The notes below the pieces were generated by a model. The model ran no database searches. It was not told the origin of the DNA and saw only the letters and a list, made by a program, of their open reading frames with translations. A DNA stretch of 61,459 nucleotides, counting the filler, from Hausera hauseri (taxonomy: Eukaryota): the NCBI GenBank assembly GCA_046269625.1. It is 10 parts of 10 records of this genome, joined end to end, with 100 filler letters (N's around TTAATTAATTAA, not from the genome) between each part and the next. Parts side by side here need not be neighbours in the genome. Positions count along the whole stretch, not along the records: positions 22,303 to 26,946 come from JBJURY010490798.1; positions 27,047 to 33,568 come from JBJURY010091321.1; 8 more parts are not named here. One strand, written 5' to 3'. The translations under genes and the position numbers were made by a program. Positions 198-54,210 of this stretch are shown piece after piece (the stretch's first letter is position 1; every line of letters begins with the position of its first letter).

Positions 198-515
198 TCA
201 AAAAAGTGATTGTAATGTAAGCCACAATAAGCAGTAATGTCCACACAGTGTAGCCATTGGATGTTGATAACGAACTCGATTATATTCAACCCGGTATGAT
301 GATTGCCGTTTAATTCGAGAAACTAACGACGATGTATAGTAAGATCCGAGCGGATCGAATACTCTGACGACGTTGGTCGAATGATGGACGTATACAGCAA
401 TCCAGTGTTCGTCCGGCAACGATGAAGTGTGTGTATTGACAATAAAGCCATTACTTTGTCGTAAATCACACGGCACACTGTCCAGTGGAAACACGCCACG
501 AAATTTCACGCCCAA
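198..515 (-). CDS. Adenain-like cysteine protease of a Maverick/Polinton
   Basis: Catalytic pattern EHWIAV...FDPLG...RYQ...CGHYC; lies directly downstream of the capsid gene on the same strand. Confidence 0.85.
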   Translation of the reverse strand: MGVKFRGVFPLDSVPCDLRQSNGFIVNTHTSSLPDEHWIAVYVHHSTNVVRVFDPLGSYYTSSLVSRIKRQSSYRVEYNRVRYQHPMATLCGHYCLLWLTLQSLF

Positions 516-642
516 GAGCAGTTTTCTTTAGTGACTGAGATCGGTAGAGCTAAATGTAAATTAAGTATAATAGTAATAGTAGTAATAAATTAGTTTATAA
601 TACGACGACGAAGAAGAAAAGTTGAGACACAGCGGATTTTAT

Positions 643-8403: not shown

Positions 8404-8452
8404 GTTAGTAGATCGCGTTTATATCATTCAGACCACAACGTCATTCGATGAT

Positions 8453-8657
8453 TGTAAGATTGAATTCTGCATAAGAAATTTATTATAAAAGTTTGTATAA
8501 CAATTAGCTCATTCACTCATTAAATGATTCTTCTTTTCAACCTGATTTTGAATTTCCTGAATTTATATTGGCTGTTTAATGATTTAACATTGAATTAAAT
8601 TTAAGACAAATTATCTTACAAAGAAACATTTCTCACTGTCATTCAAGGTTTCTTACA
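8453..8657 (-). mobile_element. 5' LTR (about 205 bp) of the gag at 8403
   Basis: TGTAAGA...TCTTACA 7-bp inverted termini, internal TATAAA and AATAAA, about 50 bp upstream of the gag ATG. Confidence 0.6.
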
Positions 8658-10628: not shown

Positions 10629-11985
10629 TCAATACTCTTTACTTCTGCACCAATATTCAAAAATGTAATTTAGATTGCTAAATGCCGGTCGATCTTCTGG
10701 ATGAATATCCCAACACACTAACATGCCTATATGCAATTCATTAGGATAAAAGACTTTTCCTCCGGCAGGTTTTAGCAATCGATATCCTTTACGGACTTTA
10801 TCTAATACTTGATTATTGGTTTTCCATCTTAAGGAGTATATCCATGTGACAATTTCATAAATCAACATACGAAATGACCAAACATGAGATTAGACACAGA
10901 TTCGCCCCTTCATTACTGCTTTGAGTACGATCCATTTTATTGGGAATTTTGTAATATATTATATAATGAATTTAATCATAATATCATATTCAGTCATATA
11001 TCATCAGTTATTGACCCCTGTTCGATATTTGATGGCAAGGATAAATTCCGATTTACCATAATTAGACTTGTCCATCAATTGTTGTCCATTGGTATGTCGT
11101 AAAAAATTCAACAAAGACCCATTTACCATCAACTCTGTTATCATGAAATCAGGCTGTTCACCTGATTCAGTCCAAACACCCAATAAGTGAGCAGTTCGCG
11201 GATGATTAAGTTTATCTATTGATTTAGCTCCTGCGTAAATCGACTTCTGTAAGACAATTGTTATCCTTAAAAACCATACTGAATCATGTTACCTATCTAC
11301 AGAATTCCGTTTCTGTTGTTTAACAGCAACTGCAACTGAATTATTCCAATTAGCCAAATACACTTCTCTAAAGCTTTCATAGACTAGATTTCGTTCTAAC
11401 CGAATAAATTCTCGGTTAACTTCAAAATCCTTAAATTTAATAGGCGGATTATATCATTATGGACACGGCTGAGATAATTTGCAACAAAGACCGTCTGCGT
11501 TATCTGCATTACGAATAATCAAATATAAATCGCATAAATATTAATTTTATAATACTGAATGAGGCTGCTAATATTGGCAAATAGTTTTCTCTTACTAATA
11601 TAATAGCCCATGTCATTATCCATTCTGTTTATTCGGTAGTGTTTTATAACATAATTACCATCAAATTCCATATCTCCCACCGATAACGCATAACTTCCAG
11701 ACTCTGGTCTAATTATATAAGTACTAACTGTATGGTCTAGTCCATACAATGTCTCATCAGCCTCTTTTTGTGAAATATTGTACCATCCTTCTAAACTTGA
11801 CTGAGACCCATAATCAATAACTACATAATTGCAGGGAATATATGCTTGTTTCCTCGATACAGTGTGCAACGCAAGCCACCATGGTTCGAACATATCTGAT
11901 AATATGTACATTAAATCACCTTTACTGAATTCTAAATCATCAGTATGCCGGGATTCATAGGAAAATAAGGCTCTCGCAAATTTTT
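10629..11985 (-). pseudogene. Src-family tyrosine kinase (SH3-SH2-kinase) pseudogene
   Basis: SH3 ARALFSYE...DLEFSKGD...WW...YIPCNYV; SH2 WYNISQKEA...GSYALSV...IKHYRI; ADGLCCKL linker; VAVK; CWDIHPEDRPAF; stops, frameshifts and probable short introns. Confidence 0.88.
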
Positions 11986-18125: not shown

Positions 18126-18719
18126 AACGACAAAAGACTGCGCCGATTCATTATTTCTCCGAGAACAAAATGAACTAAGAACACTTTGGAGTTGGATTGT
18201 AGAAGCCGCAAATAACAGTCATTATCCGGACAATTAGTCTTCGGGCAAAAGTGAATCGGCACACAGGTACAGTCGATTGCATACGTGACACATTCAGCGT
18301 CACAAGTACTCCTGCTGTTAAATTGATGTTTCAAGTGAGAGATTCTGTCAGTCAAGAGCAAGAAGTCAGATGGAATAAGCTATTCGATCCTCGCCCATTT
18401 CCTAAATACACACATGACTGTCGGCATAAAAAATTTTTTTCGCTTGTGGTTGGCCATTTAAGAAAACAATTGAAAATTGGCGACATATTTGAAAGGATTG
18501 CTGATAAAAAAGGGCTACAACCTTGGCTATCGTGACTCTAAATTCTAACGTTACCTTACAGTATCTCAGACGCGCGTCCAGTGACAAAGGTAATCCAACA
18601 ATTGTTACAATATATATTAAGTGGTGTATGAATGCTTTAATTACATTTACCTATAAAAATTATTTTGCTCATTCCCCACTGTTGCAGTCATTGGTAACCA
18701 TGTCCGGCGAAGCCCAACA

Positions 18720-19335
18720 ACTTGTCTTTAGAGTTGACCACTACGCTGAACTACAACAGGGGTCATCGGTCACTACCTTTTCGCATTGCCGCAGTATTGG
18801 CTTCCAATCATTTATTACCAGGTGACCAAAGCTATGCGACGTATTTAAATGATTTAACTGGCGTAAAATTAAACTATATCCTTGGCATGCAGTTCCTTCA
18901 CGGTTGCTACGAGCCAACTTTGTTAATTTTGTATGAACCTATCGAAACAATTATACGACATGCACTCACACGAAAGGATACATGTTGTATGAGAACATCA
19001 TCGAATCTACAAAAACGTACCAATCCACTTACACGGCATTTAAAAACTCTGCCTCATAATTGTTTTAAAATTGTCCATACACCACGACCTATTGGCGGGG
19101 CCATTATCTTATCAACAAATATTGGCATTTGTTTAAATTCTTGCGGGTTTCGCTTAATGAATATGCCAAGAAAACTACAAATTTCCCATTAAGACATACG
19201 ACTTTATTCAAACCACTTACATTTGATTGCTGCGTTCGTCAATTTATAAATACCGAACAGCTCATAGTTGCTACTAAGACGGCAGAAGCATTTATTGTAA
19301 CATTGATTCTGAAAATGGATATGAGGATGGTTATT
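18720..19335 (+). pseudogene. CPSF1: CPSF1 (CPSF160) internal fragment
   Basis: MQFLHGCYEPTLLILYEP...RKDTC...LPHNCFKIVHTPRPIGGAII...VSLNEYAKKTTNFPLR...LTFDC matches the CPSF160 N-terminal propeller. Confidence 0.85.
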
Positions 19336-19357
19336 GGTCCACGCACTGAAAAACAAT

Positions 19358-19572
19358 ATAAAACAGTTTTTAAACTAGGTATAAATAGGCAACCACTGGT
19401 TTTTCTTCCAGGTTCCGAAATGGCACAAAGTAACAAAGGTGTTATGATGATATCAAATACTATTACTATAGTTGAACTATCCGAGTCCCTATGTAAGTCC
19501 TTCGACATTCTAGTTCTTAAAGGAAATTTTGCGCATTTGTACTTTGGAATGGGATCTTTGAGGCGGAATTCG
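19358..19572 (+). pseudogene. Alpha-tubulin C-terminal fragment
   Basis: FKLGINRQPLVFLPGSEMAQSNKGVMMISNT...KSFDILVLKGNFAHLYFGMG versus alpha-tubulin FKVGINYQP..VPGGDLAKVQRAVCMLSNT...KFDLMYAKRAFVHWYVGEG. Confidence 0.75.
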
Positions 19573-19903
19573 GTCACCCCAAAATTTGGAGTCCACTGCG
19601 GCGGGCTGAGGTTCCGTCTGTCAACCCTACACCGGTCGGTCAGGCAGCGCCCTTCGATTCAGCCCCGCAACACGCCCCCAGGCACACTACTTCTCCTCTC
19701 TATCTTCCTTTTCTAAATGATAAACACACACACATATTACATTGCCTTTACATATTGTAACCATTCGTAACTTCATTTCTTTCTTACTCCACTCTTCCGA
19801 TTTTTATCTTACATATAACGGTTCTATAATACTCCTCACTGGAACCCTACCATCTTTCTCAACCCACACTTGCCTCCACATACAATTCCGTACCCGTGGT
19901 GGC

Positions 19904-20812
19904 ATGAACGCATCGCCAACCATAGACACCACGGATAAAACCACCACGAAACCAAAACCTGTTACATTGCTTCAAAAACCCATTCCTACTACTGCTAACA
20001 ACCTCTCACCTATTACCTCTTCCGCTCCTTTCCCTCACTGCACCGAATTCTTTATTGACAACCAAGGCTCTAGAAAAACGTGGTTGCAATTCCATCAACT
20101 ATGGCTACAGGCAAATAATATTACTGATTCTTCAACCAAGGCACACAATCTTTTCTTCTTACTCCCTAATAACATCAAAACGCGAATTCACAACATCATC
20201 GAAATCTTTGAACTTCCTGATCCATATCTCCAACGCTTCAACGCCGTTCTTAAGATCACAGAACCCTCTATGGACACGATCATACAACGTTTCTTCCACG
20301 ACAATGCTATAGGCACACAACGACCATCAGAATTCCTACGTACCTCTTTGGCACATCTACATACCCTCGGCGTCACTAAAGAACACAATCCAGACCTACT
20401 GCGCCACTATTTCCTCAATGCGTTACCTATCCAAATCCGGGCTCTACTTACCGTGGTGGAGGACTCCACGGCTCTTGAGAAATTGGCCGAATTAGCCTAT
20501 AGGACACAGGACGTTCTAGAATTAAATTCTCCACCAGTTGTTTTGGCAGCAGTTGCCGCTAACAATATTCACACCAATAACACACCAACAATCAACAATA
20601 TTAATAATAAATTAAACGAACTCTCTCTGTCCCACCGAGGGGATTTTGTTTCTGAGCGCGTTCGTTCTGCGTCTAGAAACCGCTCACCATCGTCTGCGTG
20701 TTCGTCGATCTGCTATTACCACAGCAGATTTAACACTAATGCTCAGAAGTGCTGCCTAGGGTGCAAATTTTATAACAAGAGTTTTTCCTCGGACACCGTT
20801 GTTTGCATCTAG
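19904..20812 (+). CDS. gag: Gag, CsRN1-type
   Basis: RPSEFLR...FLNALP capsid region and ICYYHSRFNTNAQKCCLGC CHCC-type motif. Confidence 0.8.
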   Translation: MNASPTIDTTDKTTTKPKPVTLLQKPIPTTANNLSPITSSAPFPHCTEFFIDNQGSRKTWLQFHQLWLQANNITDSSTKAHNLFFLLPNNIKTRIHNIIEIFELPDPYLQRFNAVLKITEPSMDTIIQRFFHDNAIGTQRPSEFLRTSLAHLHTLGVTKEHNPDLLRHYFLNALPIQIRALLTVVEDSTALEKLAELAYRTQDVLELNSPPVVLAAVAANNIHTNNTPTINNINNKLNELSLSHRGDFVSERVRSASRNRSPSSACSSICYYHSRFNTNAQKCCLGCKFYNKSFSSDTVVCI

Positions 20813-21019
20813 CACACAAGGTTCAAAAACCAAGCTCGAAAATGCACTTCAGGCTGCACTTTCAAATCAAATACGAACGACGGACGTACTACCTTTCCTT
20901 CTAATAGTCGTCCTAGTTCATCCTTTCAAAAAACTAAGTTCGCCGCCAGAAGTCACGGCAAACTCTGGAAAAGGCACTACTTCACTTTCTGAACGCCAAC
21001 ACGTCTCTTTTGCTGTCTT

Positions 21020-21330
21020 TATTCTAAAGGCTGCAATCACCGATCCTACAACGCAATCTGTTGATTTCCTCATTGATACAGGTGCAGTGATTTCTTTATT
21101 ACCACAAACCTTTCCTGTAAAAAATTTCACATTCAGAATTAAGCCCTTATACACTGCTTCAGGCCAAACGCTGCACATTTTTGGCATGGCTAAATTATCT
21201 TTCATCTTACCAAAATTTCCTTTTCCTTTCCACTGGCCGTTCACAGTCGCTAACGTCCAGACAGCAATTCTAGGATCCGATTTCATATCACATTATAATT
21301 TATTGGTTGACTGCAGTCAGCGATGTTTGA
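21020..21330 (+). CDS. pol: Retropepsin aspartic protease
   Basis: FLIDTGAVISLLP...AILGSDFISHYNLLVD. Confidence 0.85.
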
Positions 21331-21769
21331 GGAACGGCACCACTGGCGACATCTCTGGGCATGTCAATAGCATTTCAATTACCGCGTGGTCGACCGGGAC
21401 GCGGAGGTCAATCTTAGAAAGTCAATGAATAATTTAAATTTTTATAACAATAATTCAATTCGTAAATTTTTAAATAATAATATTGATATTCGATAATATT
21501 GATGTCGATAATTGTGGTACTACCACCAACGTTAATTCTTTCGACGAAATCACTTCACCCAACAACATTTTTAATTCGACCATCTTACATCAAATACCAC
21601 TTGACTGACATCATCAAACAACTCACACATTGCATCCGCTACTACTCAAGCCGTTTCACCACTTTCACCGCATCTCTCACAGTTACCGACAACTTTACAA
21701 CAATTTGTCAACACATCATGTCCACGCGTACTTAAAAAATATCGTACGTTTACTCCCGCAAACAGTACT

Positions 21770-22202
21770 TTGCACCATATAGTTACACAGAATCAACGAC
21801 CAATACGCCAAAAGGTACGACTTCGGTCACCTCGACGTAGGCAGGCCGTAGAAGCCGAATTCCTTGAACTAAAACGTTCTGGTATAGTACGCCATTCCAA
21901 ATCTCCTTGGTCATCACCTTTCCACGTTGTACAAAAAACGGTACTTTTAGACCATGCGGTGACTACCGACAGCTGAACAACTTGACTGTCATGGATGCGT
22001 ACCCTTTACCAATCATCAAGGATATCTTGCATCCTCTTAATTCAACCATCATCTATTCGACCATTGATTTAACAAAAGCATACCATCAAATACCGGTGGC
22101 ACCCGAAGACATAGGAAAAACTACTGTCACTACTCCTTTTGATCTCTAGACTACCTGTTTATGCCATTCGGTTTGCGGAATGCCGCACAAACTTTTCAGC
22201 AG
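21770..22202 (+). pseudogene. pol: Reverse transcriptase, N-terminal part, frameshifted
   Basis: SKSPWSSPFHVV; RPCGDYRQLN; IDLTKAYHQIP; MPFGLRNAAQTFQ. Confidence 0.9.
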
Positions 22203-22302: not shown

Positions 22303-22670
22303 ACGATAATCTTTTGTCCGTAGACATAGACATTAAAATGTCGTAGTGCTTCTTTTACGGCTAATGTTTCTAGTTCGGTAACTGAATAATTCTTTTCGGC
22401 CTTCTTTAGCGAACGTCCTCCATAAGCTATTGGATGTTCTAATTCTTCGTCTTCACGTTTTTGAGCTAATTCATACCCTATACCTTCTTTGCTTGCGTCT
22501 GTTTTAATTATGAATGGCAGGTTAAAATCTGGATATCTTAAAACTGGTTCGCTTGTCAAAACTTTCTTCATTTCGTCAAATGCTTTTTGTTCCACTTCTG
22601 TCCATCTCCACTTAGTTTCTTTTTTGAGTAGGCGATATAGTGGTGCGTTAATTTTTGAATTGTCCGGCAC
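22303..22670 (-). pseudogene. pol: RNase H (Ty3/Gypsy)
   Basis: PFIIKTDASKEGIG...HPIAYGGRSLKKAEKNYSVTELETLAV. Confidence 0.92.
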
Positions 22671-23388
22671 GTAAGTGGCGTAATACCCACATAGGCCTAA
22701 CCAGTGTCTTAACTCTTTGATTCTGCGGTTCCATACATTCGGATATTTTATCTAGCAGGGATTTGTCCGGTTTTGTTTCTCCTTCTCCAACTATATGTCC
22801 GAGGTACGATACTACGTTCTGTGCCCATTTACATTTCTTTGGGTTCAGTTTTAGCCCTGCTTGCTCTAGCCGCATGAATGTATCTTCATTGTCCTTTAAG
22901 TGTTCCTCCTCCGTTTTTGATGCTATCATCACGTCGTCTATGTACGCGAATGCATGATCAAGTCCCATGAGCATCTTATTCATCATTCTCGTAAAAATAG
23001 ATGGGCCTGTGGTGATGCCGAAAGGCATAACATTAAATTCGTATACGCCATCGTGTGTCTTAAACGCTGTTTTATATCGATCTTCTTCAATCTCCACTTG
23101 CCAGTATCCCGATTGTAAGTCGAGTGTGGTAAACCATTTCGCTCCTGATAGTCTGTGCAAAGCTTTTTTTACTGACGACAGGGGAAATGAGTCTTTTATC
23201 ATCAGCGTGTTTAGTGCCCGATAATCTATACAAAATCGATGTTTTGTAGTTCCTTTCTTTTTAACCATAAGTATAGGTGAGTACCATGATCGGTAGCTTG
23301 GCCGAATTATATCGGCCTTTAACATTCGCTCTACCTCTTTAGTTATTTCTGGTCTCAGTGAATGGGGCGATGGGCACCATTTCGGCAT
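22648..23388 (-). pseudogene. pol: Reverse transcriptase (Ty3/Gypsy)
   Basis: RFCIDYRALN, LDLQSGYWQV, MPFG, YIDD, YLGH. Confidence 0.95.
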
Positions 23389-23494
23389 TTTCTGTTCTTT
23401 TAGATGGATTTTATCATTCGAACCGGTTTTTTCCTTAATGGGATTGTTAATCTTAGAGCTTTTGCTCTGCCTATATCTTCCTCATTTTGTGCGA

Positions 23495-24260
23495 TTACTG
23501 AACGGTATTTACATAGTAATTCGTAGAATTTGCAGTACGCCTCAGGCGAGAATTTGGTTTCAATGTGAGTGGAAATTCAGCACACTTATATGGCTTTTCC
23601 TCTATCGTTACTTCCGATACTCTGTAAGTGTGACCTAAAGTAGTGTTAGCGTGCAATCTTACGGGGATTGGTGCATTGTTCGCTAATCTGATAGGTATTC
23701 GTCCCGTCACTACTCTACATAGAATTTTGCTAAACATAAGGTTTGGATTGATATTCTCTTGAGGTTCGAAATATACTGGTAGGTCTTCGCCTTGACGAAT
23801 TTGTTTAAAAATTATCATTTCAGTTCTGGGCTGGATGTCCTCGTCTACTGGAATCCATACTTCGCCTGATTTCCTTTCCTTTATTACTTTTGTCCCTTTA
23901 ATTGGTTCGAGTTCAATTAATTTTCCGTTATGCACATCGATTGCCATACCTGGTATCTGTTTCAGTATATTACAACCTAGTACTACATCGTCTGTCAACT
24001 GGTCCATTTCCGCAAATTCATGTTGAAATGCTTGATCCATCATATAAACAGTAGGAGTCCATTTAAACTTCAGCTTCAATACCTGCCCGAAAGCTCCTAC
24101 ACTACCTTCGTCTGATGATAATGGTGGGCATAGTTGTTTCCGTAATGTGGTCGGTATCGATTCGTATTTTATAAACGATTATTCTTATCCTGTGTCCATT
24201 AAGGCGTATACTTCCCAATCATCGATGTGTATTTTAGCGAAAGGCCTCCCTTCTGCTACT
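23495..24260 (-). pseudogene. pol: Aspartic protease plus dUTPase-like linker domain
   Basis: RPFAKIHIDDWEVYALMDTG ... DVVLGCNIL, then IQPRTEMII...IPIRLANNAPIPVRLHANTTLG. Confidence 0.75.
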
Positions 24261-24959
24261 GTTCCGTAGCAATTTGACGCTACCTTTGTCTGTTTTATAG
24301 TAGAGACTTTGTGTCCATTTATCGTTATTTCTGGCGATGAGAGGATGTTTTCCCTTAACTGTCTTAGTTCTCCGTTTGGGTATAAATTATTATTTGCCAT
24401 ATCATGGGCGCGATTGTCAATGCGCGGTTCCTGTGGTAATGAACTCGAGGTTGAGCATAATTCTGGGTTCTCCCAGATCGCCGATTTTGATTCTATGTGA
24501 CGCGGTATCCTTTTCGAATACAATATCCCGTGGTTGTTTTCTGTTGATCTTTGGTTCATGGCATTCAATTTTCATAGTTCTCCATAATGTTTCGTTTTTT
24601 CGTAAGGATCCTCATAATTAATAGGTTTTTGGTAGATTCCGGAGTTACACGATATGATCGATTTACGATCACAATCTTCATATATTGGTGCGGTTGATGG
24701 CATAATAGGTAATGGCTCATAAATTAATGAATACATATCGTGCATCTTACTTCTAAAACTCACTTCTCCTCCCTTAGGCTCGTCATCATCTGAATCATCC
24801 TTTCGTGTTACTATTTTCTTATCTTTACGTTTATACAAAATCGAAGGCTTTCCTCGCCGTTTGTGATTATAGTACCCGACGTGGCGTTTTACGTTATTCT
24901 TCCATCGATTTTTGTCGTAGGCCTTGAGCATTTTCCCAAAAGGTGTTATATTTGCAGTC

Positions 24960-26750
24960 AAAATTTTACAGGAGAATCCTGTTAATGTGAATATTTCATA
25001 TACGTTGATGATGGCTTAGATCACTGCTTTAATTAGCTGGACTAGAAAGTAAATGGCTAAGAATCCAGATGCGGCTTGTCCGAAAATTAAAAATCTTCCC
25101 CATATCTTATACAATATTTCCGAAGTTACTCTCTGATATAGTGATTAGCGCCGAGTAACGACTCTCATTTTGCTTGAAAGCGAGTATCGTCAATTACCAT
25201 TGACATGGCCAAATTTAGTTCATACGTTCTTTGTCTCGGAAATGCCAAGAACTGTCTAAAGGCTTCTATGTCCTTTGGATTATAAATTCCTTTATTGACC
25301 GTGTCTTCGAACTTCTCTTCTGATAATCCTTTGATTAGATTTGTTCCGATTAGCTTACTAGGGGCTGCAGCAGCGCCTGCATTAGGCAAACTTATCCAGT
25401 CGGTTCCGCTACGTCAAAACATAGGTTCACCTAGGCTCGTTTTGTATTCCTGCAATATTGTTGGTTCTGTTGAGTTTGCCAATAATACTCTGGTTAGTGG
25501 CATCGCTAGTCTTGGCATATTCTCATAGATAATCGGTAATTCTTGCATGCATTTTTTCTCTTCTACGTTGATCGGTACGTCTCTTTTCTCACATTCGTAA
25601 GTTAATAGGACTTATCCAGTAACTCGTCCAAAAACACCTTCTTTCGTCGGTATATTTGGTGATGCCAATTTTGGGTTGACGAAAATTAAGGCCAGTTTGG
25701 TTCTTATGACTTCAGTATCTAATTTGTAGTCATTCGTTATCATTTTGTGGTATAGTTCTGCTATTCAGATTTGTCCTTTGTAATAGAAATAGTCGTCTCG
25801 TTTTTTGAGATAATCCTCAATCTGCATGTCTTACGTTTTTAAATCATACGTTTTTATATTAACTTCGGTTTCTGTTACGAAAAATGCTTCGTAGTTTGTG
25901 GCATACTTAACTACTTCGCAGAGTGTTAACATATCTTTTATAATGAACTTTAACCCATGCGCAGCCGATATCAATATCGTTGGAGTCGGTTGTTCTATTA
26001 CGTCTTCCCTCGATCTGGTATTAGTGTGTATTTTATTTGTATAACGTTTTCTGGTAGTCTTATTAAACTTTAACACTTTGATTTTAATGAAATTACATTT
26101 TCTTTTGGAAAGTGGACTGCATACAACGACTGAACTTAAGAATGTATAAGCTCCATCTTGTATGTAACATTTTTATTTTCAGTAAATAGTTTAGTAACGC
26201 TATAAAATATCGCCTTTAGAGATCTTAACTCGGTTTCGTAAAAATCTACAACTACTATTCATTCTTCTATTCTTTTTCCCATATCGTATTCCGCTTCGGC
26301 TCAGTAACCGGTGTGCATATTTAATTTTCCAACTGCCACTTTGTAGGTTATAATTATCTTTCATTCTTGGGCTTCCAATTCCATGTTATTCCAAACCATT
26401 TTACCGGTTAACCGGGCTCCTAACCAGTGCTGTCTATGCACATTCATCGGGATTAATGGTTTAGTTGGCTTGATTACTGAAGAATGCCCGTGCATATTAC
26501 CACAATGAAAAACGCTGCGAGATCTTTGTATCATGCATTCCGTTGCATCCATTGCGGTTAATTGTCGTTGTTCATATAATATATACCTTTTTTCTGTTCT
26601 CTCGAGCTTATGGGGTCTCGCATCTTCGCATGTTTCCAAGTCCATTAAGGAATATTTCTGACCCATTTTGAATTTGTCACAGTTGTATATGGTAACTGCC
26701 CCTAACTGTTTTACTAGCACCATTATCGTCAGCGAGTTGATTAACCAACT
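24960..26750 (-). pseudogene. env: Envelope glycoprotein, chuvirus-G/herpes-gB-like (class III)
   Basis: Signal-like SLTIMVLVKQLGA; IYNCD...YSLMDLETC...EC..QRSRSVFHCGNMHGH; KCMQELPI...PLTRVL; GIYNPKDIEAFRQFLAFP; transmembrane WGRFLIFGQAASGFLAIYFLVQLIKAVI. Confidence 0.8.
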
Positions 26751-28429
26751 GGATTCGTTTCCTTTATGCAGAGAGATATTTCGTATCATGTCGTCTAAGT
26801 TATTTATTCCTTTTATCTTGTCCTCTTTTTCGAATAATTTAGTCCATTTAATTTCTTTAGGTATCCTCCTCGCGTCTCTACCATCCCGACTTCTACATCA
26901 CTTGATGATTGAAAAGTTGAATTATCCATATTTATTATAAAAGTTGNNNNNNNNNNNNNNNNNNNNNNNNNNNNNNNNNNNNNNNNNNNNTTAATTAATT
27001 AANNNNNNNNNNNNNNNNNNNNNNNNNNNNNNNNNNNNNNNNNNNNTGCATTTCAATAATAATTCATTTTGCCGAGCCGTCGAACAATTGTGGCCTGAAG
27101 GCAGGAGATTGAAATACAATATTTTTGAAATATAATACTACACCAACAGTTGGACTATCAAACATGATATCTGTACATAATTGTGATTCACAGTTTTTGG
27201 TATTGTTGATATAAAAATGTATCGTTTCTTGACGTAAGCTTGTAAATTATACCCACGATGACAGAACTATATAAGCTGCATCTGGATCTGAAAAATGACG
27301 CAGGTTTATTTTATAGAAATTGTATCTGTAATTGTAAATGACACTATTCATCGTATAATTTGTTGATTGAACTTAAGAATACAAGTGATCGTATTTCCTT
27401 TTCGTTGTTCTTTTGGTTTGGAAGGTACCGTCGTAGTTAATAACAATAATTTTCCTTCATTTCCCATAAATCACGTAACCTTATATCGGGTTCTGCCGTA
27501 TTGTTTGACAACTAAATAAAGTTTGTAGCCTTTAAGTCAAGCTTAGTGGCTTCCACGGAAAGTAATTATTGAGGTTAAGTGGCAAATAAATTGAGGCCTT
27601 TGGGAGTAAACCCAGTGGTCCTTAGGGAATTATTTGTATTCACGAGTAAGGCTAAAGCAAGTTTTATTGGAGCTCCGTCTCGGTAATTCAGTACAAAATA
27701 AAATCCAATAGTTAAAGGCGGTTGACTTAGGTCTTTGGGAGTTAACAATATGCAATTTTAAAAATCAAATATTCTAATGTATCGATAAATTTTTATTGCT
27801 GAATAAATGGCATGAGTCAAGAGTATTATCATTAATAACACTTTCATCGTGCTCATTTCATCATTTTCTGCTACTCATTGACGTCGGTGGTAGACAAATA
27901 GTTAACCGCCATGCATCGTTTTTCAAATGTGCTATGTATTTGTTTTGTCCGAAATATATTGTTTGTGTGTTTGTGCTGAAAATTTGTGGAAGTGTATTTG
28001 ATATTCTTTGTTCAATATGATTCATCGTTGCTCTCGTTTTGTGAACATTGTGTATGTTGTCTACAATTTGACAATAAATTGGTTGTGAAAAATTTTCATC
28101 CGTGTATCATTTCAGTTGAAGTAAATATAAACGTCATTTTGGTGAATTCAATGTTTGGTGCATTGGTGGATAGTTATCTATCAATTTCCTTTGAAAATAA
28201 TTGTCTACAAACAGTAAAACTCAGGCATGCAAGAAAATACATTTAATTTAATTTTCAACAACCATGCAACGATAATTGTTTTCGGGGTCTCTCTCCGGGA
28301 GCCTTCTACTACCTTTTATTCCATTGCCCTCCTTGAACAAATGAAACGTTTTATTTAACAGAAAACAATTGATATGAATAATATTAATGATCATAAATAA
28401 ATTACATTTATCTGTCCAATTGTCTTTCA

Positions 28430-28815
28430 AGGTTTTCCAACAAGATTCAGCAATTTCCTTCGTCTTCATACTAACCATTGAAAATATTTCTTCCCAGAAA
28501 AGTGATTTTGTTTCGCCTTTTTATTTAATGCGAATTTTAAGATTACCACTGTCATTAATAACATTAAATGTACAATGTTTCATATTGTCTTGCGCCGATG
28601 GCTCTTCAAATTTACTACCAATGAGTCTTCTGATATCAAATACGGTATTATTGAGGTTCATTGCCGCTTGATCTTTTACAGTATCACTCAGTCTTTTAGT
28701 ATCCGTGAAGGCAACATAACTTGAGTTATTCGGTTTCCTTGATCATTTATGATTATTTCATGTTTGCCGTGAACGCAGGAACATGTCGTTCCAAGGTTAA
28801 TTCCAACAACGGCAG
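28430..28815 (-). pseudogene. hsp70: Hsp70 N-terminal fragment
   Basis: [12 protein letters not shown]...[16 protein letters not shown]...[23 protein letters not shown]...EEIFSMV..KTKEIAE. Confidence 0.88.
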
Positions 28816-29610
28816 AAAGCAAAAGGTTATGGTATGAAAATTTAAATTTTTATTATCAAGAATTTTATTGATTATTATTTCATATTAACAATATTTGAGT
28901 GGCACTTCTGAACTATATGCCTATTACATTGAAGTACGCCTAATCAATAAATGAAATATTAATGATTCACATCTATAAATATTTTCTTAAAAATGTCTCG
29001 AGGACAGAAGCTTTGGAGTTCTGATTTTTTGTCCGCTGTCATTCGATATGAATAACTATATCTGATGGATATCTATTTAAATTTGGCATAGAATATTTTC
29101 TAATCACTGTTGATTTCGTATCAAGAAATTTGGGGTTTAACGCACTGTTACTGTCTATTTTTTATTTACATTCATTCTAATTTTAGCACAAACAAAACCA
29201 AACAAACAATGTTTATTAAACATATAGATACATTATATACAATTTCATTTTTAATCCAAACTTCAATTGAAACATTTTTTAATTTTTGTAACTAATCAGG
29301 TTTATCCAACTTTCAACTTACCTTCGGCATGCATATTGGGAAAAATTTAATATGAAATTAGATAAATCAAGAGTAGAAGTTTTAATTATTTGGTACCGTA
29401 TTTACTGATTGATGTTTAAATGCTTTTTAATGCACTAAACAATGAAAATACTGTTCTTTAGTGGCGTGTCGAAAGTGAGAAAGAATTTATTGCCCAATAT
29501 CTTTTCTTTTTAGGGACATGCAAAATTTTCCAATTTTGGTCCTTTTTTTATGAAAAATTAAACCGGAAGAAATTTAAAATTTGTAAAAATATTATTGTGG
29601 GAACCGTATA

Positions 29611-34929: not shown

Positions 34930-37345
34930 TCATGGCGGTAGATAGTCTGTGCTAAGTAAATGTTTGAAAATTGCCTTGTTAAAGGAGCAGCCTGTTGGTA
35001 AACTTTTGATGGAGTGTGGGAGGCTGTTCCATAGATGTGCACCAGAGTACGAAAGGCTCTTTTTGTAATGTTCAATCCTGGGTTTGGTTAGTATGAGCTG
35101 ATGCAATCTGCGACCATCTCTTCGGCTGGTGTTAAACAGTGGTACCAAATAACAGACGGAGTGGTTAGATAGAATTGTGTGTGTAAATTTGGCCTTGTAG
35201 AGAAAGCGTTTTCTAAGTGGTAATATTTTAGAAACCACTTTTTTCCTGGTGTCATGTTTAAGGTGCTTGTCAGCAATAAGGTTGACTGCTCGTTTGTGTA
35301 AAGAACACATCCGTTTGGTGGTAGATGCAGAGCAACCGTCCCAAACTGTTGAACAATAGTCTAGACGTGATTGGATATGTGAGGTGAAAAAAAAGCTGTC
35401 TTGTATCGTCATCAAGGAAGCGTTTCATTTTTGCCAGTTGGTATGTTTTCTTAGATGTGTTTTTTTTTTTTTTGTTAATTGTTGAACATGTGAGTGCCAT
35501 GTTAAATGTTGATCTATCGTCAATCCTAAAACTGTGTGTTCTGTGACGTGTTCCATTGATGTATTCTCAGTGTGGAGATGAAGCATTTGTTTTGGCATGC
35601 TCTGGAGTTTTTTGTCTTGTTGTAGTAAGCATGGATTTTGTTTTCGAACTATTTAGAAGCATGCGATTTGTTTTGCTCCACTTGATTATATTATGTACAT
35701 TCACTTGAAATGTACTTTCTAGTGAGTCACTATCCATTTCACTTGTGTACATGGTGCAGTCGTCAGCAAAGAGGTCACATGTTGTGTTTGTGCAGTGAAG
35801 TGGCAGATCATTGACATATAATGAAAAAAGCAGAGGCCCAAGGATAGAGCCTTGAGGCACGCCAAATTTTATGGTTGTTCTCGGAGATATCAAATAATTA
35901 TAACAAACTTGCTGGTGTCTGATTGAAAGAAAAGATTTGAACATATCTAATGGTTTATGACCCAGGCTGAATGTTTTTAATTTTTGCATAAGGATGACGT
36001 GGTCAACCATATCAAAGGCGTTCTTGGAAATCAATAAACACGGCACCGCACACCTTATAGTCAATAATACTAGACAGCCAGTTGTCTACTATTCTGGTCA
36101 GGGCTGTGTGACATGAATGTTTTGGCAAGAAACCTGATTGATTTTCAATCAGAAGACCGTTGGATGTTAGGTGTTGGAGTGTAATGTTGTATATGTGTTT
36201 TTCTAGTGGTTTAAAAAGAGATGATAGAAGACATTTTGGTCTATAATTGTTAGGATCGTTTAATGAGCCTGATTTATGTAACGGGTAGACTTTGCCAATT
36301 TTAAATGCAGTGGATAAGTAGTTTTTGGCTATGCATTGATTGTGAATATATGTTAGAGTATCACTGATTATCGGTGCACCATGGTGCAAGATTCTGTTGC
36401 TAATACCATCCAGACCTGAGCAGTTGTTGTTCTTTAGCGCCAGAAGGTATTTATAAACTTGATGGACTGTTAGGAAGGGAATGTTCTCTAGCGTTGGCGT
36501 GTTACATGTTTTATTGAAGCAAGTTTTTTTTTGACCGTTATCATAAGTGACATAGGGTTGATCGAAGATTATATATTTCATTAGTAAAGTGGTTACTAAA
36601 ATGTTGTGCCGTGAGAGTATTTTTAGTTGAGGTGTCTGCTGATTTTCTTTTGTGTGATAGAGTGTTTATTGCTGTCCAAATGTTTTTGTTGTCTGATGTG
36701 TCATGGATCATGTTAAAATGTTTAAAGCTTCTGAAGCGTACTGTGATATGCTCTTGTTTGGGTTATTTAAGTCCTCATTTTGTCCACGTGCAGCATGTAG
36801 GATAGTGACTGTACATTCTGTGATGTGTGCTGGATATGTTGTGTAAATGTGATCGATTAGTGTGGAAGATGTTTCTGTAACCCTGGTTGGCTGATTGACT
36901 ATTTGTGTTAGGTTGTATGAAAGAATGATGTTATTCTATATGTTGTTTTGTTTGTAAAGGTCTATATTGATGTGCCCTAGGAGAATAATTTCTTTTGACG
37001 AGTCCCAGACTTTGTTCAGCTTCAGTGAGAAGTTGTCAAACCAAATGGCTGGGCATTTTCTGTAGAGATAACAAATTAGAATCGAACTTATGTTGGGAGT
37101 TTTATTTCTAGCCAAATGCACTCATCATCAATAGGTTCCAGGTCGAAGCGACGAGTTGCCTATATGGATGTCGAGACGTAGATGGATATACCAGCCTCTA
37201 GTTTTCTGCAAGGATCTCTACGGATTATATTGAAACCATTGATACTAATATCCTTGTCTGTAATGTTATCGTTTAATCGAGACTGCGAGAAGCCGAATGT
37301 TTGAAAGTCAAGAATCAAGACATTTGTTATTTCCGAGAGCTTACC
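34930..37345 (-). mobile_element. CR1/L2-type LINE ORF2 (APE endonuclease + RT), degraded
   Basis: NYRPKCLLS, NQSGF, AFDMVDH, GVPQGSILGPLLFSLYVNDL, LFADD, SRLDYCSTVW; upstream IILLGHINID and SETR-like endonuclease motifs. Confidence 0.9.
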
Positions 37346-38080
37346 TCCTAATAATCAGTGCTGGGATCAGCTTGCTCAATATGTTTACCTTAGATTGAGA
37401 CCCACAGTTTAGAAGTCTCTGTCTTGGTTACAGCTAACTGTTAAAATTATATCTTGTGAATAATATTAACAATTTTATCTTGCCAACATTAATGAACATT
37501 CTGTTGACTGTGCACCACGGTTGTGGTACATTTAAATGGCGCTGTAGAAGAGACTTACAGAGTAAATGTCTGTGCCAGCTACAGTCAGAGTTATATCATC
37601 AGCAAACATAAGATTTTCATCACGCGGGAGTGTTAACAGAATGCCATTAACACAAAAATAGAGCACCTGTTACTGAGCCATGTGGGACGCTTATTGATAA
37701 AGGATGGGGTTGTAATAAGATGTTAATACGAAGAAAAACGCTGTGTTCGGTTTTCAAGAAAGGACTGAACCACTGAGATAGCGTCAAGATACAATTTTAG
37801 TTTATGTAAACGCATTCTGTGGTCTATTCGTTCAAATGCCTTGCATAGATCTATCAACAGAACACCATTAATTTTATTACAGTTTATGTTCGAGTGACCT
37901 GTGTCAGTGAGTTTGGTTAGTAGAGACTGGTAAGAGTGGTTACGTCTAAAACCTGATTGATTCTCATGTAAGAGATTAAATATCATTGATAGAAGTCTGC
38001 ATATGGTTATAAAGAGTCGCTCGAGAGGCTTGGATATTGCAGAAGAAAGTGAAATCCGTCTATACTCTTCTGCAAGTTCA

Positions 38081-38340
38081 GGAGCCGCGGTGGCATAGTG
38101 GTTAGTGAGCTCCTCTGCCGATCGTGTGGTCGTGGGTTCAGTCCCAATTGTGGGCACTGAATTATTTTCGACCAAAACTGTCAGTGGCACACCCAGCCTC
38201 ATAAATGGGTACCGGAGAAATCTCTGAGAAAGTAAAGGCTGACACATAAAGCAATCATGTACCCGTGTCAAGGAAAAATAGGAGACTAAATCTACATTTG
38301 CCTGTACGCCTTATGTAGGCGTGTAATGGACTTTACCCTG
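38081..38340 (+). mobile_element. tRNA-derived SINE
   Basis: A box TGGCATAGTGG, B box GGTTCAGTCCC, CACCCAGCC..AAATGGGTACC core; target-site duplication CTGCAAGTTC at 38070 and 38341. Confidence 0.8.
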
Positions 38341-50212: not shown

Positions 50213-50570
50213 TTTACCGGTTATTCGAGCTTATAAACAGTGTTGTCTATCTACGTTCATTGGGATTAATGGTGTCGTTGGTTTGATTATTAAAGTATCA
50301 CCATGCATATTACCACAATGAAATACGCTGCGGGATCTCCGTATCATGCATTCCGTTGCGTCCATTGCAATTAATTCACGCTGTTGACAGAGTACATATC
50401 TTTTTTCTGTTGTCTCGAGCTCGTGAAATCTCGTATCTTCACATGTTTCTAAATCCATCAGGGAATATTTCTGACCCACCTTGAATTTGTCGCAGTCGTA
50501 TATAGTGACGGAACCTATCTACTTTACTAGCATCATTATCGTCAACAAATTTATTAGCCAATTGGATTCG
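50213..50570 (-). pseudogene. env: N-terminus of a second class III env copy
   Basis: GQKYSLMDLETCED...DATECMIRRSRSVFHCGNMHG, closely similar to 26400-26750. Confidence 0.85.
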
Positions 50571-53500
50571 TTTCCTTTGTTCGGGAGATATTTTGTATCA
50601 TGTCCTCTATTTTATTAATCCCTTTTGCTTCCTCCTCCTTTTTGAATAATTTAGTCCATTTTATCTCTTAGCTGCCCTTATTGCAGCTTTTCTGGCTAAC
50701 CCAATTGTCTTGTCGAATTCATTTTCCGGAGAGGGTTAGTTCTTACTGCCAAATATATCAAGACTTTCCTTCATTCTTCCATTATATTGTCTGTGATAAT
50801 TCTATCAAATACTGTTTCATCAGGGATGGCGCTTTTAGATAATTTGAATCGTGAAATCTTCATTGTCCGGTCTAGATTATATATTAGTCTTTCCATCTCG
50901 GATAATAGGTCACCTTGGAGTCCAGTATAATTGACTATCCTAATTAAATCTATCATTAGTTCAATTAGTTCAATTAGTTCTTCGTTATCTGAACTCGGGG
51001 TTGATACCGATCGTTGTCTCAATTCCCTAATTAGGTCTGCATTGTAATCGATTTCTTTTATTTTTCTCGGTCTTCGGACCGGTCGCTTTAGTTTCATTGG
51101 TGGTAAGATTTCACTTAGAGGAACTAAGTTTTTATCGTATTGCGGTTTGTCACCATCAGTCTGTAAGTATTCAAAATACATTGCGGCATCCTGAATCCCC
51201 ATGATTCTTCCGGACGCAATGCTCTGTATGTGCCTTTCTCATGGCTTCATCTTTGGTTTGCTTACTGGCGATTATTGCTATTATTCAATTTTCCTCGAGG
51301 GGTATGATCCCTACACCTGTCAAGGATTCTAACTCGTCTAATATCCTGCCCCTGAAATAGAGTCGATAATTAACTCCTTTCCTACCGTCATTATCCATTA
51401 TCCGCTGTTTTATATCCCCAACGGTGGTATAAGTAGTGCATTCAAATTCCTCATTGTCCATTCCTTCGGATGATACTTTCACTTTTAATTTCCGCTTCTG
51501 GTTTATTTTTCAACAGTTTGGCATATTCTCTTATTAAGAGCTTGGGTACAGCGTTGTATGCGGTGTTTTCACTGGATAGCTTGGTCAAGGTTGGAAGCAA
51601 TCTCCTTAACCTATCTTCACTTATGTTTATTTTCAAAGCACTGCTCAGTTCCTTTTCAGCTAGTGTGGGATCAAGTAACATTTGCACTTCGAATTTCGTC
51701 TTGTGGGTACCAATACGTGACTGATAAATTTGTATTGGAGTTCTTTGGCTTTGCTCGTTTAAACCCTGAAGGTATTTATCCTACTCGGCCTCATTCTCTG
51801 CGTCAGATAATTCGTAGTTCATTAATGCCGCGTGTCCAACTTGGACTCTTTCGCGTAAGTCTCTTATCTGCGGTTGGAATGTTTTCATTACGGGTATCCT
51901 AAATCCGTCTCCGCTTCCGCAAGCTTGTAGTATTAATGTTATTAATCGGCACATTTCTTCTGGTTGTATTAGGGCTTTTTCCTGATAGCTAGTCACTTCT
52001 GCGATTCTGTCCCTTTGCCATCTTTGTATAAATTCCGTTTTGTCGTTCATTTCGGATTCCGTAAGGGAGTACTTGTTCTTGTGTACTTCTGTTTCTCTCA
52101 GTAGTTCGTTTAGTACGCGCTGTCTTTTTTCGGAGTGTAACCGGGTCTCTTTTACTAGACGTATTTAATTTATTAGCCGTCTGGCTACTACTTCGTCAAT
52201 TTCTGCCATTTCTGTTAATAGTAGGATTAATTTGTGCGTTTGATTTAATACCTCGGCATCCGGGTCTATTGCGTCCATTAGCCTGCCTATAAACTTGGCT
52301 TCGTCGCCCGTCAACTGAAGAAACTTCCTAATTTCCGTTAGTTAGGTGTAACAATGTAGGTCGAAACCTGGCGTCCATTCTACTGGATTCTGTAAATATT
52401 GTAGTGTTTGCGCCAGAGCAATCCGGTAATCGCTACATACTTCTAATGTTTCTATTTTCTGTGATGAGATTTTCTTCAGCGGTTTCTGCATTAGGTTCTG
52501 TATCCCTTCCCAACGGATGTTCGCTAAACTTCGCTGAAGATCACTTATCTTGTTTCTTTTTCTGTAGAATTCCTTTTCTTTTATCATACTATATATCTCT
52601 GTTAGTGTCGTTCGATCTTGGTCCCTACTCATAAATTCAAGTTCTCGGAATGATTCGAATTTAATTCGCAATCTCGCTTCGCTTTTCATCGTACCAATAT
52701 CTAGTAACATTTCTTCCAATTTGTGTCTCATTATAGACTCAACCACAGAGAATTCTCTCAGTCTTTCATTTATTACTCCTGCTATGGAAGGTAACAAGTC
52801 TACCCACTTTCTTATTTGTTTAGATATTGCTGGTTTAGAGCGGATTATTTCGTCTAATGTCCCAATAGCTTCTTTTAGTTCGTGATCTGGCCCTCGTACA
52901 AATTCTATGATCTGTTTCATGTAGTTGAATTCTTTATACTCGCCTAATTCGAGAAGACAAGCGCGTATTATTCTCTGTGCTTCTATTCTTTCAGAGTGAA
53001 CTACACCGCTCTTAAAGTTGTTGATTTTGGTTCGCATTTCATTTTCTTTTTCAATACGTATTTTTAAATCTGGGTATTTTTGAGGGCTATCCTTTATCAG
53101 GATGCACATTGCCATCAAATGGGAAATATCGATTGGGTATATGCCCAATATCATTAAGTCGGCATCAGTCAATTCATATACTGGCTTATTATTAAGATAA
53201 GAGATTATCGCATCTTCGATCTCATATATCAATCCTTCTAAATTACGTCTTACGCGTTTCAGTTTTGGGTTGTCTTTTAGTGCGTTTAATAGTCATTGCG
53301 CTTGATTAACCTGATCGAGAAACGGCTTATTTCTATTCCACCATATTTTCGTAAAATCGATCCCACTTTTTGTCCACAGTTCTAATTTATTTTGCAAACT
53401 TCTTATCAATTCTTGCGGCTTCTCTTGGAATTCATAAGTTGTGTCCTCCTTTTTCTGAGAACCAGGTTTAAGCTTTTTATATAGCTTCTCTATGAATTTT

Positions 53501-54210
53501 TGTTCTTTTCCGGAGATATACAACTGTTTGCTCATCTGCTGGAGTTTTTGTAGGTTCTCCTGTAGCCTTTCGGGATCACTCAGTGCGTTTCTTATTTCGG
53601 TTATTTCGTTTCCATTTTTCCAGGATTTTCTAATCTTTCCAAACTTGACCGGTTTTCCCCTTCTGGTTCCTCTTCGCTAAGCGGTATTTGACAGACTTCA
53701 TTAATTTCATCAATATTTGAGATATATGTTGTTTCAGGAACGTCTTGAGTTATAACAGAAGTATTCAACTCCGTTTCATCTCTTAAAGTGATGATGAAAT
53801 CATTTTCCTTTTCTAAATTCTTTTTAATAGGGGATCGTGAACGAGTTCTCGACCTCCGCCTAAGTGAAGGACTTTTACCTCTATTTTTGGTTATCTTGAG
53901 TATTAGTGGACCAATGAATTCGCTCTTAACCTCGTCTGTTGTTTTGTCCTTATCTTGAGACGTGACCTCGGTATCTGCGTCCAAGTCTACACTTGAAGAC
54001 GTAGTTGGATTGTCTTCTTCCTCCGCTTGACTTAGGTTTTTCTTTCTGGCCATGTTAGTATTTCCAGGCGCTATAGCCTTTTCGTACTTGGTTTTCGGTT
54101 CTCTTAATCCATGGTAAACTTCCATTTGCTGCAACTTTTCTTCGTATTCCTTCCTGGCCTTGATTACTTGTGGATTATTATACTCACTTATACTTCTTAC
54201 ATACCTTCGC
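50570..54210 (-). pseudogene. Long fragmented coding region upstream of env (same family as 22303-26946)
   Basis: Continuous run of minus-strand ORF pieces; 50570-50665 is homologous to 26750-26860 (WTKLF...KGIN..DMI). Confidence 0.65.
51285..51482 (-). CDS. Ubiquitin-like domain
   Basis: TTVGDIKQRIMDNDG...YRLYFRGRILDELESLTGVGI versus ubiquitin TIENVKAKIQDKEG...[21 protein letters not shown]. Confidence 0.7.
   Translation of the reverse strand: MKVSSEGMDNEEFECTTYTTVGDIKQRIMDNDGRKGVNYRLYFRGRILDELESLTGVGIIPLEEN

What the first reader, a model, noticed from the sequence alone, without database searches (positions are those of the whole stretch)
22303..26946. Ty3/Gypsy element with a class III (chuvirus-G/gB-like) envelope placed upstream of pol, apparently in one polyprotein
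Seen: on one strand of one contig the order is upstream coding sequence, internal signal-like peptide, Cys-patterned glycoprotein, transmembrane segment, about 230 aa of linker, protease, RT, RNase H. The env frame is open upstream of the signal peptide. After the transmembrane segment it runs (past one stop) into ORF 24572-24961, with no LTR, PBS or Gag in between. Known: env in retroviruses and errantiviruses follows integrase; this glycoprotein family is known from chuviruses and some BEL/Pao and Gypsy elements. Inference: an X-env-pol polyprotein would leave Pol attached to the cytoplasmic tail of the fusion protein, which would be an unusual way to package the enzymes.
Basis: partly seen in the sequence, partly recalled or inferred. 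Interest (0 to 1): 0.85.

Follow-up and report, generated by a model that had tools for sequence, protein, structure and literature searches.

The report
Decayed Burro-type envelope-before-polymerase retrotransposon
This is a broken copy of an animal jumping gene whose membrane-fusion (envelope) gene lies in front of its enzyme genes and was likely read with them as one long protein, a rare layout already published for the Burro elements of flatworms.

Summary
On the minus strand of one 4,644-base contig lie, in order, a signal-like segment, a chuvirus-type glycoprotein (Pfam PF24664, three collinear pieces), a transmembrane segment, a coding linker, protease, RT and RNase H. The copy is dead: at least 14 stops and about five frame changes. 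Thirteen natural relatives carry env, protease and RT in one stop-free protein; the most complete (L002) reads Gag, ubiquitin-like, env, protease, RT, RNase H, integrase. A relative's predicted env fold matches herpes gB and chuvirus G. A second copy in the window has the family's helical plus ubiquitin-like module before env. Env and RT trees of the relatives agree, so a nested insertion is unlikely. The layout is published: planarian Burro (env in frame between gag and pol, PMC6431247) and GAG-ENV-POL elements of nematodes, bryozoans and flatworms (PMC13524379). This is a divergent new member (about 30% env, 50% RT identity to relatives). The freshest lead lies in the relatives: a second predicted membrane protein, possibly fibronectin-III-like, after integrase in the same polyprotein. 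The scan's earlier notes held no match.

The parts
26870..26946 (-). Contig end that is not shared with the second copy and resembles sequence in front of a gag-like ORF on another contig; possibly a piece of a different repeat
   Evidence: blastn 74% over 81 nt to window 8413-8493; sequences side by side
26745..26857 (-). End of the upstream coding region, in frame with the signal-like segment
   Evidence: frame translation; shared with the second copy
26688..26744 (-). Internal signal-like hydrophobic segment, followed by the family's YxC start of the ectodomain
   Evidence: hydropathy 1.66; same segment in relatives
25130..26687 (-). Class III (chuvirus G / herpes gB type) ectodomain, broken by stops and frame changes
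   Evidence: Pfam PF24664 in collinear pieces; 24-33% identity to intact relatives; fold of relative P0008 matches gB and chuvirus G
25007..25129 (-). Membrane-proximal WGRF motif and transmembrane segment (one stop inside it)
   Evidence: hydropathy 2.35; WG[KR]F motif in all 18 relatives examined
24254..25006 (-). Coding linker of about 250 codons (predicted cytoplasmic tail), same frame as the transmembrane segment and the protease, one internal stop
   Evidence: stop counts and chance estimate; no repeats; covered by contigs of other copies in both runs
23954..24253 (-). Retroviral-type aspartyl protease (DTG motif, two stops just after it)
   Evidence: Pfam RVP E 6e-5; stops
23407..23953 (-). 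Protease-to-RT spacer homologous to that of the relatives (the position where Burro has a dUTPase-like domain)
   Evidence: tblastn to P0003, P0028, P0031; no Pfam dUTPase hit
22726..23370 (-). Reverse transcriptase, YIDD motif, Ty3/Gypsy type
   Evidence: Pfam RVT_1 E 2e-36; best solved relatives 4ol8 and Ty3-G Gag-Pol 7q5b, E 7e-43 and 5e-42
22303..22721 (-). Connection and RNase H, cut by the contig end before integrase
   Evidence: Pfam RT_RNaseH_2 E 1e-35
50213..50669 (-). Second copy of the env N-terminus on another contig, 81% identical over 458 nt
   Evidence: blastn; Pfam PF24664 E 1.4e-7; mismatches 18%, 8.5% and 30% at codon positions 1, 2, 3
51264..51660 (-). Helical module followed by a ubiquitin-like domain upstream of env in the second copy, in the same order as in the relatives
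   Evidence: family profiles E 1.6e-4 and 6e-3, each best of 60 frames; Pfam ubiquitin E 0.006, below its cut-off
51661..54210 (-). Long, decayed coding region of unknown kind further upstream in the second copy; no Gag seen before the contig ends
   Evidence: frame translation; no useful Pfam or Atlas match

Best explanation
The contig is a decayed copy of a Ty3/Gypsy retrotransposon whose gB/chuvirus-type envelope gene lies before protease, RT and RNase H, and whose active ancestor likely encoded one Gag-accessory-Env-Pol polyprotein of the Burro type. Shown: the domain order, the shared frame from transmembrane segment to protease, the decay, many related copies in two sequencing runs, and the single-ORF layout in natural relatives. 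Inferred mechanism: translation starts at Gag in the cytosol; the internal signal segment sends the ectodomain into the ER and signal peptidase would cut Gag and the accessory domains free; the transmembrane segment stops transfer, so that protease, RT, RNase H and integrase are made in the cytosol, tied to the envelope tail. Since Gag is then no longer fused to Pol, the envelope tail would be what brings Pol to the budding site, and the element's own protease would release it there. Gag, Env and Pol would be made one to one, without a frameshift. This copy makes none of it.
For: Collinear Pfam hits and coding linker. phmmer with the env-tail-to-protease frame gave 27 hits; of the 16 scanned, 13 carry PF24664 and 11 of those 13 have a protease after it in the same chain. 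Thirteen relatives have env, protease and RT without a stop; 12 of them reach integrase. Gag marks precede env in L002, P0022, P0035 and P0036 (Pfam zf-CCHC, Ty3_capsid). Spacing fits: ectodomain start to WG[KR]F is 529 codons here and 528-544 in 12 relatives; protease to YIDD is 418 here and 402-409 in 13. Predicted fold of P0008: all 40 listed PDB rows are herpes gB (best E 1e-9; Z 8.5, rmsd 6.4, 218 aligned), best viral rows chu-like G (E 3e-30). Env and RT trees of the 13 relatives share their supported groups. The window RT is sister to that clade among 136 RTs (SH-aLRT 91). The second copy has the helical plus ubiquitin-like module and third-position bias. Same layout in print.
Against: No intact copy of this very family was seen, so one ORF is inferred from relatives at about 30% (env) and 50% (RT) identity. 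The search allowed only proteins of 1570-4997 residues and so favours fused forms. The window's RT and env are long branches; under the mixture model the RT joined two env-less-looking rows (91/80) inside a 19-row set with the env clade (95/86), and only 11% of bootstrap trees made window plus env clade one group; the RNase H tree was unresolved. Some relatives are stored as split pieces (P0014/P0029, P0022/P0007, P0027/P0030, paired by equal contig length). No Bcl-2-like domain, Gag, integrase or LTR was found in the window copies. The P0008 model is only moderate (mean pLDDT 59, TM-scores 0.1-0.3). Topology rests on hydropathy, not on SignalP or DeepTMHMM.
Confidence: 0.8

Rival explanations
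1. Env and pol are linked in one element but are separate reading frames in this family, and Pol is made by readthrough or frameshift at the stop in the linker.
For: A TGA stop lies in the linker at 24574. I could not read whether other copies share it: a contig of run X1 spans it (24485-24790) but its letters there were not listed. The family is distant from all intact relatives.
Against: The copy has at least 14 stops scattered through env, linker and protease, so one more is expected from decay. None of the 13 relatives has a stop between env and the first protease.
Confidence: 0.08
2. The polyprotein is real but the envelope protein serves as a membrane anchor for assembly inside the cell or in extracellular vesicles, not as the fusogen of an infectious particle.
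For: No particle, RNA or protein evidence was obtained here. The eLife paper treats copy number as sign of expansion, not of infection.
Against: The whole ectodomain of about 530 residues is kept at constant length in 12 relatives and shows third-position bias between the two window copies; an anchor alone would not need the class III fold (inference).
Confidence: 0.09
3. Chance neighbourhood: a chuvirus-derived glycoprotein gene or another element's env and an ordinary Gypsy pol were brought together by nested insertion or misassembly.
For: The assembly is fragmented (10 contigs in the window), the contig's first 90 bases look foreign, and no listed contig spans the whole stretch. Summed depth is far higher over RT than over the linker, which env-less copies could cause.
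Against: Frame continuity from transmembrane segment to protease, no repeat at the junction, matching spacing, the same fusion in 13 relatives, and both env and RT point to the same set of relatives.
Confidence: 0.03

Closest known systems
Burro (GYPSM1) giant Gypsy-like LTR retrotransposons of planarians, as described in PMC6431247 (section 7 read in full)
   Same: Env in frame between gag and pol in one polyprotein; env similar to fusion glycoproteins of mononegaviruses; ubiquitin/SUMO-like domain before env; in my relatives also Bcl-2-like (P0008, P0036) and ankyrin domains (P0028, P0036) and CCHC Gag.
   Different: No Bcl-2-like domain detected before env in the window's second copy; MATH, BIR and ankyrin not seen in the window; host not shown to be a planarian; no Burro sequence was available for a tree; size and LTRs unknown.
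GAG-ENV-POL 'ancient errantiviruses' with HSV/gB-type ENV in Nematoda, Bryozoa and Platyhelminthes (Chary and Hayashi, PMC13524379; part 1 of section 5, section 14, passages and rows of supplement 1 read)
   Same: Ty3/Gypsy pol, gB-type env, env before pol; multi-copy families (up to 215 copies listed for Schmidtea mediterranea).
   Different: That paper treats the three parts as ORFs and does not use the word polyprotein. It says these elements are not one clade, so the order alone gives no lineage. Their sequences were not compared.
Nematode endogenous retroviruses of Sacco et al. 2022 (paper not held; seen only as cited in PMC13524379)
   Same: Env and pol in flipped order. A continuous gag-env-pro-pol frame is my recollection of its abstract, not from a call.
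   Different: Not compared; nothing ties the window to a nematode.
Anakin BEL/Pao elements of mosquitoes with a chuvirus glycoprotein (Dezordi et al., PMC7642597; search listing and passages in PMC10084718 and PMC12440569)
   Same: Same glycoprotein family.
   Different: BEL/Pao rather than Ty3/Gypsy; the window RT is closest to Ty3-type RT among solved structures.

Membership tests
Ty3/Gypsy (Metaviridae) | RT of Ty3/Gypsy type | tested here: met
   Best solved relatives are 4ol8 and Ty3-G Gag-Pol (150 and 147 bits) ahead of 8r0s (112) and retroviral RTs (70 or less); nests among Gypsy-type pols in trees. No BEL or Copia RT was in the trees.
Ty3/Gypsy (Metaviridae) | Pol order protease, RT, RNase H, integrase | tested here: met
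   Protease-RT-RNase H with no integrase between protease and RT; integrase follows RNase H in 12 relatives. The window contig ends before it.
Ty3/Gypsy (Metaviridae) | Flanking LTRs, primer site, target-site duplication | not testable with these tools
   Contig too short and no genome held; L001 and L002 show no LTR pair either.
Class III fusogen, chuvirus G / HSV gB type ENV | Ectodomain of the PF24664 family between a signal segment and a transmembrane segment | tested here: met
   Three collinear hits, each above the Pfam cut-off; hydropathy.
Class III fusogen, chuvirus G / HSV gB type ENV | gB-like fold | tested here: met
   Tested on natural relative P0008 (28-36% identical to the three window pieces), not on the broken window copy.
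Class III fusogen, chuvirus G / HSV gB type ENV | Trimer formation and fusion activity | not tested
   No trimer model was run; activity needs the bench.
GAG-ENV-POL errantiviruses (PMC13524379) | gB-type env placed before a Ty3/Gypsy pol | tested here: met
GAG-ENV-POL errantiviruses (PMC13524379) | Gag upstream of env | tested here: inconclusive
   Met in relatives; not reached within the 3.5 kb upstream in the second copy.
Burro elements | Env in frame between gag and pol in one ORF | tested here: inconclusive
   Met in relatives; in the window the frame from transmembrane segment to protease is shared but broken by stops.
Burro elements | Ubiquitin/SUMO-like domain before env | tested here: met
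   Second copy: Pfam E 0.006, family profile E 0.006 over 79 of 83 positions, preceded by the family's helical module. Weak but concordant.
Burro elements | BCL2-like domain between the ubiquitin-like domain and env | tested here: inconclusive
   A profile of five relatives found nothing in the window, and neither did Pfam or a pairwise test; the region is decayed and divergent, and several intact relatives lack a Pfam hit too.
Burro elements | RT clade shared with planarian Burro; planarian host; size over 30 kb | not testable with these tools
   No search returned a named planarian sequence; Grohme 2018 not held. A Src-family SH3-SH2 piece points to an animal host only.

The most novel reading that the evidence does not exclude
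These elements are enveloped viruses of invertebrates that build their whole particle from one multi-spanning polyprotein, in the manner of flaviviruses, with a two-part entry machine: the gB-type fusogen before pol and a separate fibronectin-III or Ig-type attachment protein made from the tail behind integrase. Nine of 12 relatives that reach integrase have a signal-like and a transmembrane segment after it, the enclosed domains are weakly homologous to each other, a low-confidence model of one matches mostly FNIII structures (best E 0.003), and P0040 has an Ig domain there. The window's family would be a deep new branch of this group, possibly in a host phylum where it is not yet described.
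Probability: 0.25. Interest if true: 0.7.

Novelty: new member of a known kind. Interest (0 to 1): 0.3.

Why it matters
The layout itself is known, so the finding mainly adds a divergent family. It matters modestly because it widens the set of Burro-type elements and because the single-ORF layout makes a clear, testable prediction: once the signal segment is cut, Pol is tied to Env and not to Gag, unlike in the usual Gag-Pol scheme. If the membrane protein behind integrase proves to be an attachment protein, these retroelements would have a two-component entry system, which my searches did not find in print.

Tried and rejected
No whole genome is held, so other genomic copies could not be read directly. 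A word-index search with the env-tail-to-protease frame among longer proteins found nothing (0 of 2545 candidates); HMMER on the same query did. No RNA holder was listed. The Atlas gave only low scores (0.76) for the long upstream frame of the second copy and gave no answer for the post-integrase domain. Pfam found no informative family in the post-integrase tails of L001 and L002. The single-sequence model of the L002 tail has mean pLDDT 38 and no match at E 0.001 or better: a lead only. A Bcl-2-like domain before env in the second copy looked possible by eye but failed three tests. A primer-site-like motif near the contig end occurs once, as chance would give, and was dropped. The RNase H tree was too short to place the window. 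Rows left out: 5 of 141 RT rows were too short for the tree; one search used 56 of those 136; P0020 (env, protease, part of RT) was not counted among the 13. Depth was not used as copy number. Literature: 'gag-env-pro-pol' gave 0 papers; Sacco 2022 and Grohme 2018 are not held, and their text or figures may already describe the post-integrase membrane segments. Of the eLife supplements only matching rows of file 2 were seen; figures were not available. Earlier scan notes: no match by words, sequence or place; one search listed two notes on other element types that did not bear on this reading.
Full report
Setting. The window is ten contigs joined by spacers of N; the finding is the whole contig 22303-26946. 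No genome is held. A broken Src-family SH3-SH2 sequence elsewhere in the window points to an animal; the phylum was not determined.

Observation. Three-frame translation of the minus strand and Pfam on single-frame pieces give, in order: PF24664 Monjiviricetes_fusion in three collinear pieces (profile 11-159, 259-499, 532-632 of 653; all above the cut-off), aspartyl protease, RT, RNase H. Hydropathy marks a signal-like segment at 26744-26688 and one transmembrane segment at 25063-25007. The transmembrane segment, the linker and the protease lie in one frame; over 24185-25015 it has one internal stop, against 19 and 26 in the other frames (chance 3e-8). No repeat of 25 nt or more lies in the contig. 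The copy is dead: 14 stops in the env, linker and protease frames and about five frame changes (near 26100, 25135, 23570, 23400 and 22722, judged).

It is a family. Contigs of two public runs cover all 30 bins of the stretch (16,304 and 1,421 contigs laid at 80% identity or more); pieces of other copies cover the linker (24270-24584 and 24485-24790), but no listed piece spans the whole stretch. A second copy lies in the window (50213-50669, 81% over 458 nt). Between the two copies mismatches are 27 of 152, 13 of 153 and 45 of 152 at codon positions 1, 2 and 3, the pattern of divergence under selection on the protein. The second copy extends 3.5 kb upstream as decayed coding sequence and holds a helical module (E 1.6e-4) followed by a ubiquitin-like domain (E 0.006), as in the relatives. 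No Gag and no Bcl-2-like domain was detected there.

Intact relatives. HMMER with the env-tail-to-protease frame against 1.84 billion proteins gave 27 hits. I scanned 16: 13 carry PF24664, and 11 of these have a protease after it in the same chain. Cluster look-up added P0028 (4844 aa) and P0031 (3003 aa). A search with the env of P0001 among proteins of 1570-4997 residues gave 12 hits, all with env and protease and 8 with RT; that length window favours fused forms. A metagenome scan gave 2 loci from 31 candidates, each with one long ORF (3426 and 3703 codons). In all, 13 natural sequences hold env, protease and RT without a stop, and 12 reach integrase; some are near-copies (P0001/P0033, P0037/P0038). 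L002 reads Gag with two CCHC knuckles, ubiquitin-like domains, env, two proteases, RT, RNase H, integrase and a tail. Bcl-2-like domains precede env in P0008 and P0036 (Pfam E about 0.001, below cut-off), and ankyrin repeats occur in P0028 and P0036. Spacing matches the window: 529 codons from ectodomain start to WG[KR]F against 528-544, and 418 from protease to YIDD against 402-409; WG[KR]F to first protease is 301 against 130-264. Against this, three pairs of stored proteins appear to be split pieces of one contig each, so not every copy is continuous.

Fold. P0008, a natural relative 28-36% identical to the three window pieces, was modelled with 17 sequences (mean pLDDT 59; core strands near 90). 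All 40 listed PDB rows are herpesvirus gB (best E 1.4e-9; Z 8.5, rmsd 6.4, 218 aligned); the best viral rows are chu-like glycoproteins (E 3e-30). Global TM-scores are low (0.1-0.3), as the domains are not well placed relative to each other. The class III assignment is met for the family.

Trees. The RT is closest to Ty3-type RT among solved structures. Among 136 RTs the 13 env-bearing relatives and three pol fragments form one clade (98) and the window is its sister (91) on a long branch. With the mixture model on 56 rows the window lies in a 19-row set with that clade (95/86) but pairs with two other rows (91/80), so its exact place is unsure. Env and RT trees of the 13 relatives share their supported groups, and the window is the most distant row in both. 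Env and pol have therefore travelled together, and the window's family is a deep branch.

Mechanism. Shown: order, frame, decay, family, single ORF in relatives. Inferred from hydropathy and general knowledge of membrane polyproteins: Gag and accessory domains in the cytosol, an internal signal cut by signal peptidase, a lumenal gB-type ectodomain, one transmembrane segment, then cytosolic Pol. Cutting at the signal would part Gag from Pol, so Pol would reach the budding site on the envelope tail and be freed by the element's protease. A second, weaker hydrophobic stretch after the transmembrane segment stayed under my threshold; I read it as lying along the membrane, since crossing it would put Pol in the lumen. 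Many relatives have two or more protease domains between env and RT; the window has one.

What follows integrase. The window ends before it. In 9 of 12 relatives two hydrophobic segments enclose 200-400 residues after integrase; L001 and P0040 show part of this pattern and P0034 none. These domains are weakly similar to each other. A single-sequence model of the L002 domain is poor (pLDDT 38), yet most of its best matches are fibronectin type III structures (best E 0.003); P0040 has an Ig domain there (E 1.5e-5, below cut-off). This is a lead for a second surface protein, not a result.

Prior art. [quoted passage not shown] Chary and Hayashi (PMC13524379; part 1 of section 5, section 14, passages, supplement rows) report GAG-ENV-POL elements with gB-type env in Nematoda, Bryozoa and Platyhelminthes, not monophyletic. 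Sacco 2022 and Grohme 2018 were not held. PMC10084718 (passages) and PMC12440569 (first fifth) cover chuvirus glycoproteins in BEL/Pao elements; PMC8532177 (passages) shows BURRO1 transcripts in planarians. Searches for the post-integrase surface protein found only the 2019 review or nothing.

Verdict. Real, correctly read, and a new, divergent member of a known kind: it works like a Burro-type GAG-ENV-POL element. Strict membership of Burro is open, as host, Gag, LTRs and a shared RT clade could not be tested and the BCL2 test was inconclusive. Interest 0.3; the two-part entry machine is the reading worth following.

Noticed in passing
L001:10617-12107 (+) and L002:12085-13473 (+): Both intact relatives carry, after the polyprotein, a separate ORF with an RNase T family exonuclease domain (Pfam PF00929, E 1.4e-5 and 1.1e-3): perhaps a captured host nuclease gene.
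   Followed up: partly
L001:4745-5350 (+): An extra signal-ectodomain-transmembrane module sits between two proteases, before RT, and is similar to the post-integrase domains of other relatives.
   Followed up: partly
P0022, P0028, P0034, P0035: Several aspartyl protease domains in tandem between env and RT, and one more after integrase in some relatives.
   Followed up: partly
P0002: A complete env-pol polyprotein is filed at NCBI under a Flavobacteriaceae metagenome bin; likely an animal contig binned by mistake.
   Followed up: no
window 198-527 (-) and 42229-42924 (-): Weak Pfam hits to adenovirus-type protease and to protein-primed DNA polymerase B, as in Polinton-like elements.
   Followed up: no
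window 10629-11983 (-): Pieces of a Src-family kinase gene (SH3, SH2, kinase-like stretches) with few or no introns and broken frames; possibly a processed pseudogene.
   Followed up: partly
window 19724-22202 (+): Another Gypsy-like element: gag-like ORF, protease-like frame and start of RT, no env seen before the contig ends.
   Followed up: no
window 18203-19716 (+) and 28430-28850 (-): By eye, decayed stretches resembling CPSF1 and HSP70 (labels recalled, from no call).
   Followed up: no
window 35567-38310 (-): Three further RT fragments (Pfam RVT_1).
   Followed up: no
window 51661-54210 (-): About 850 codons of decayed coding sequence of unknown kind in the second copy, upstream of the helical module; no match in Pfam, in the relatives or in the Atlas.
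   Followed up: partly
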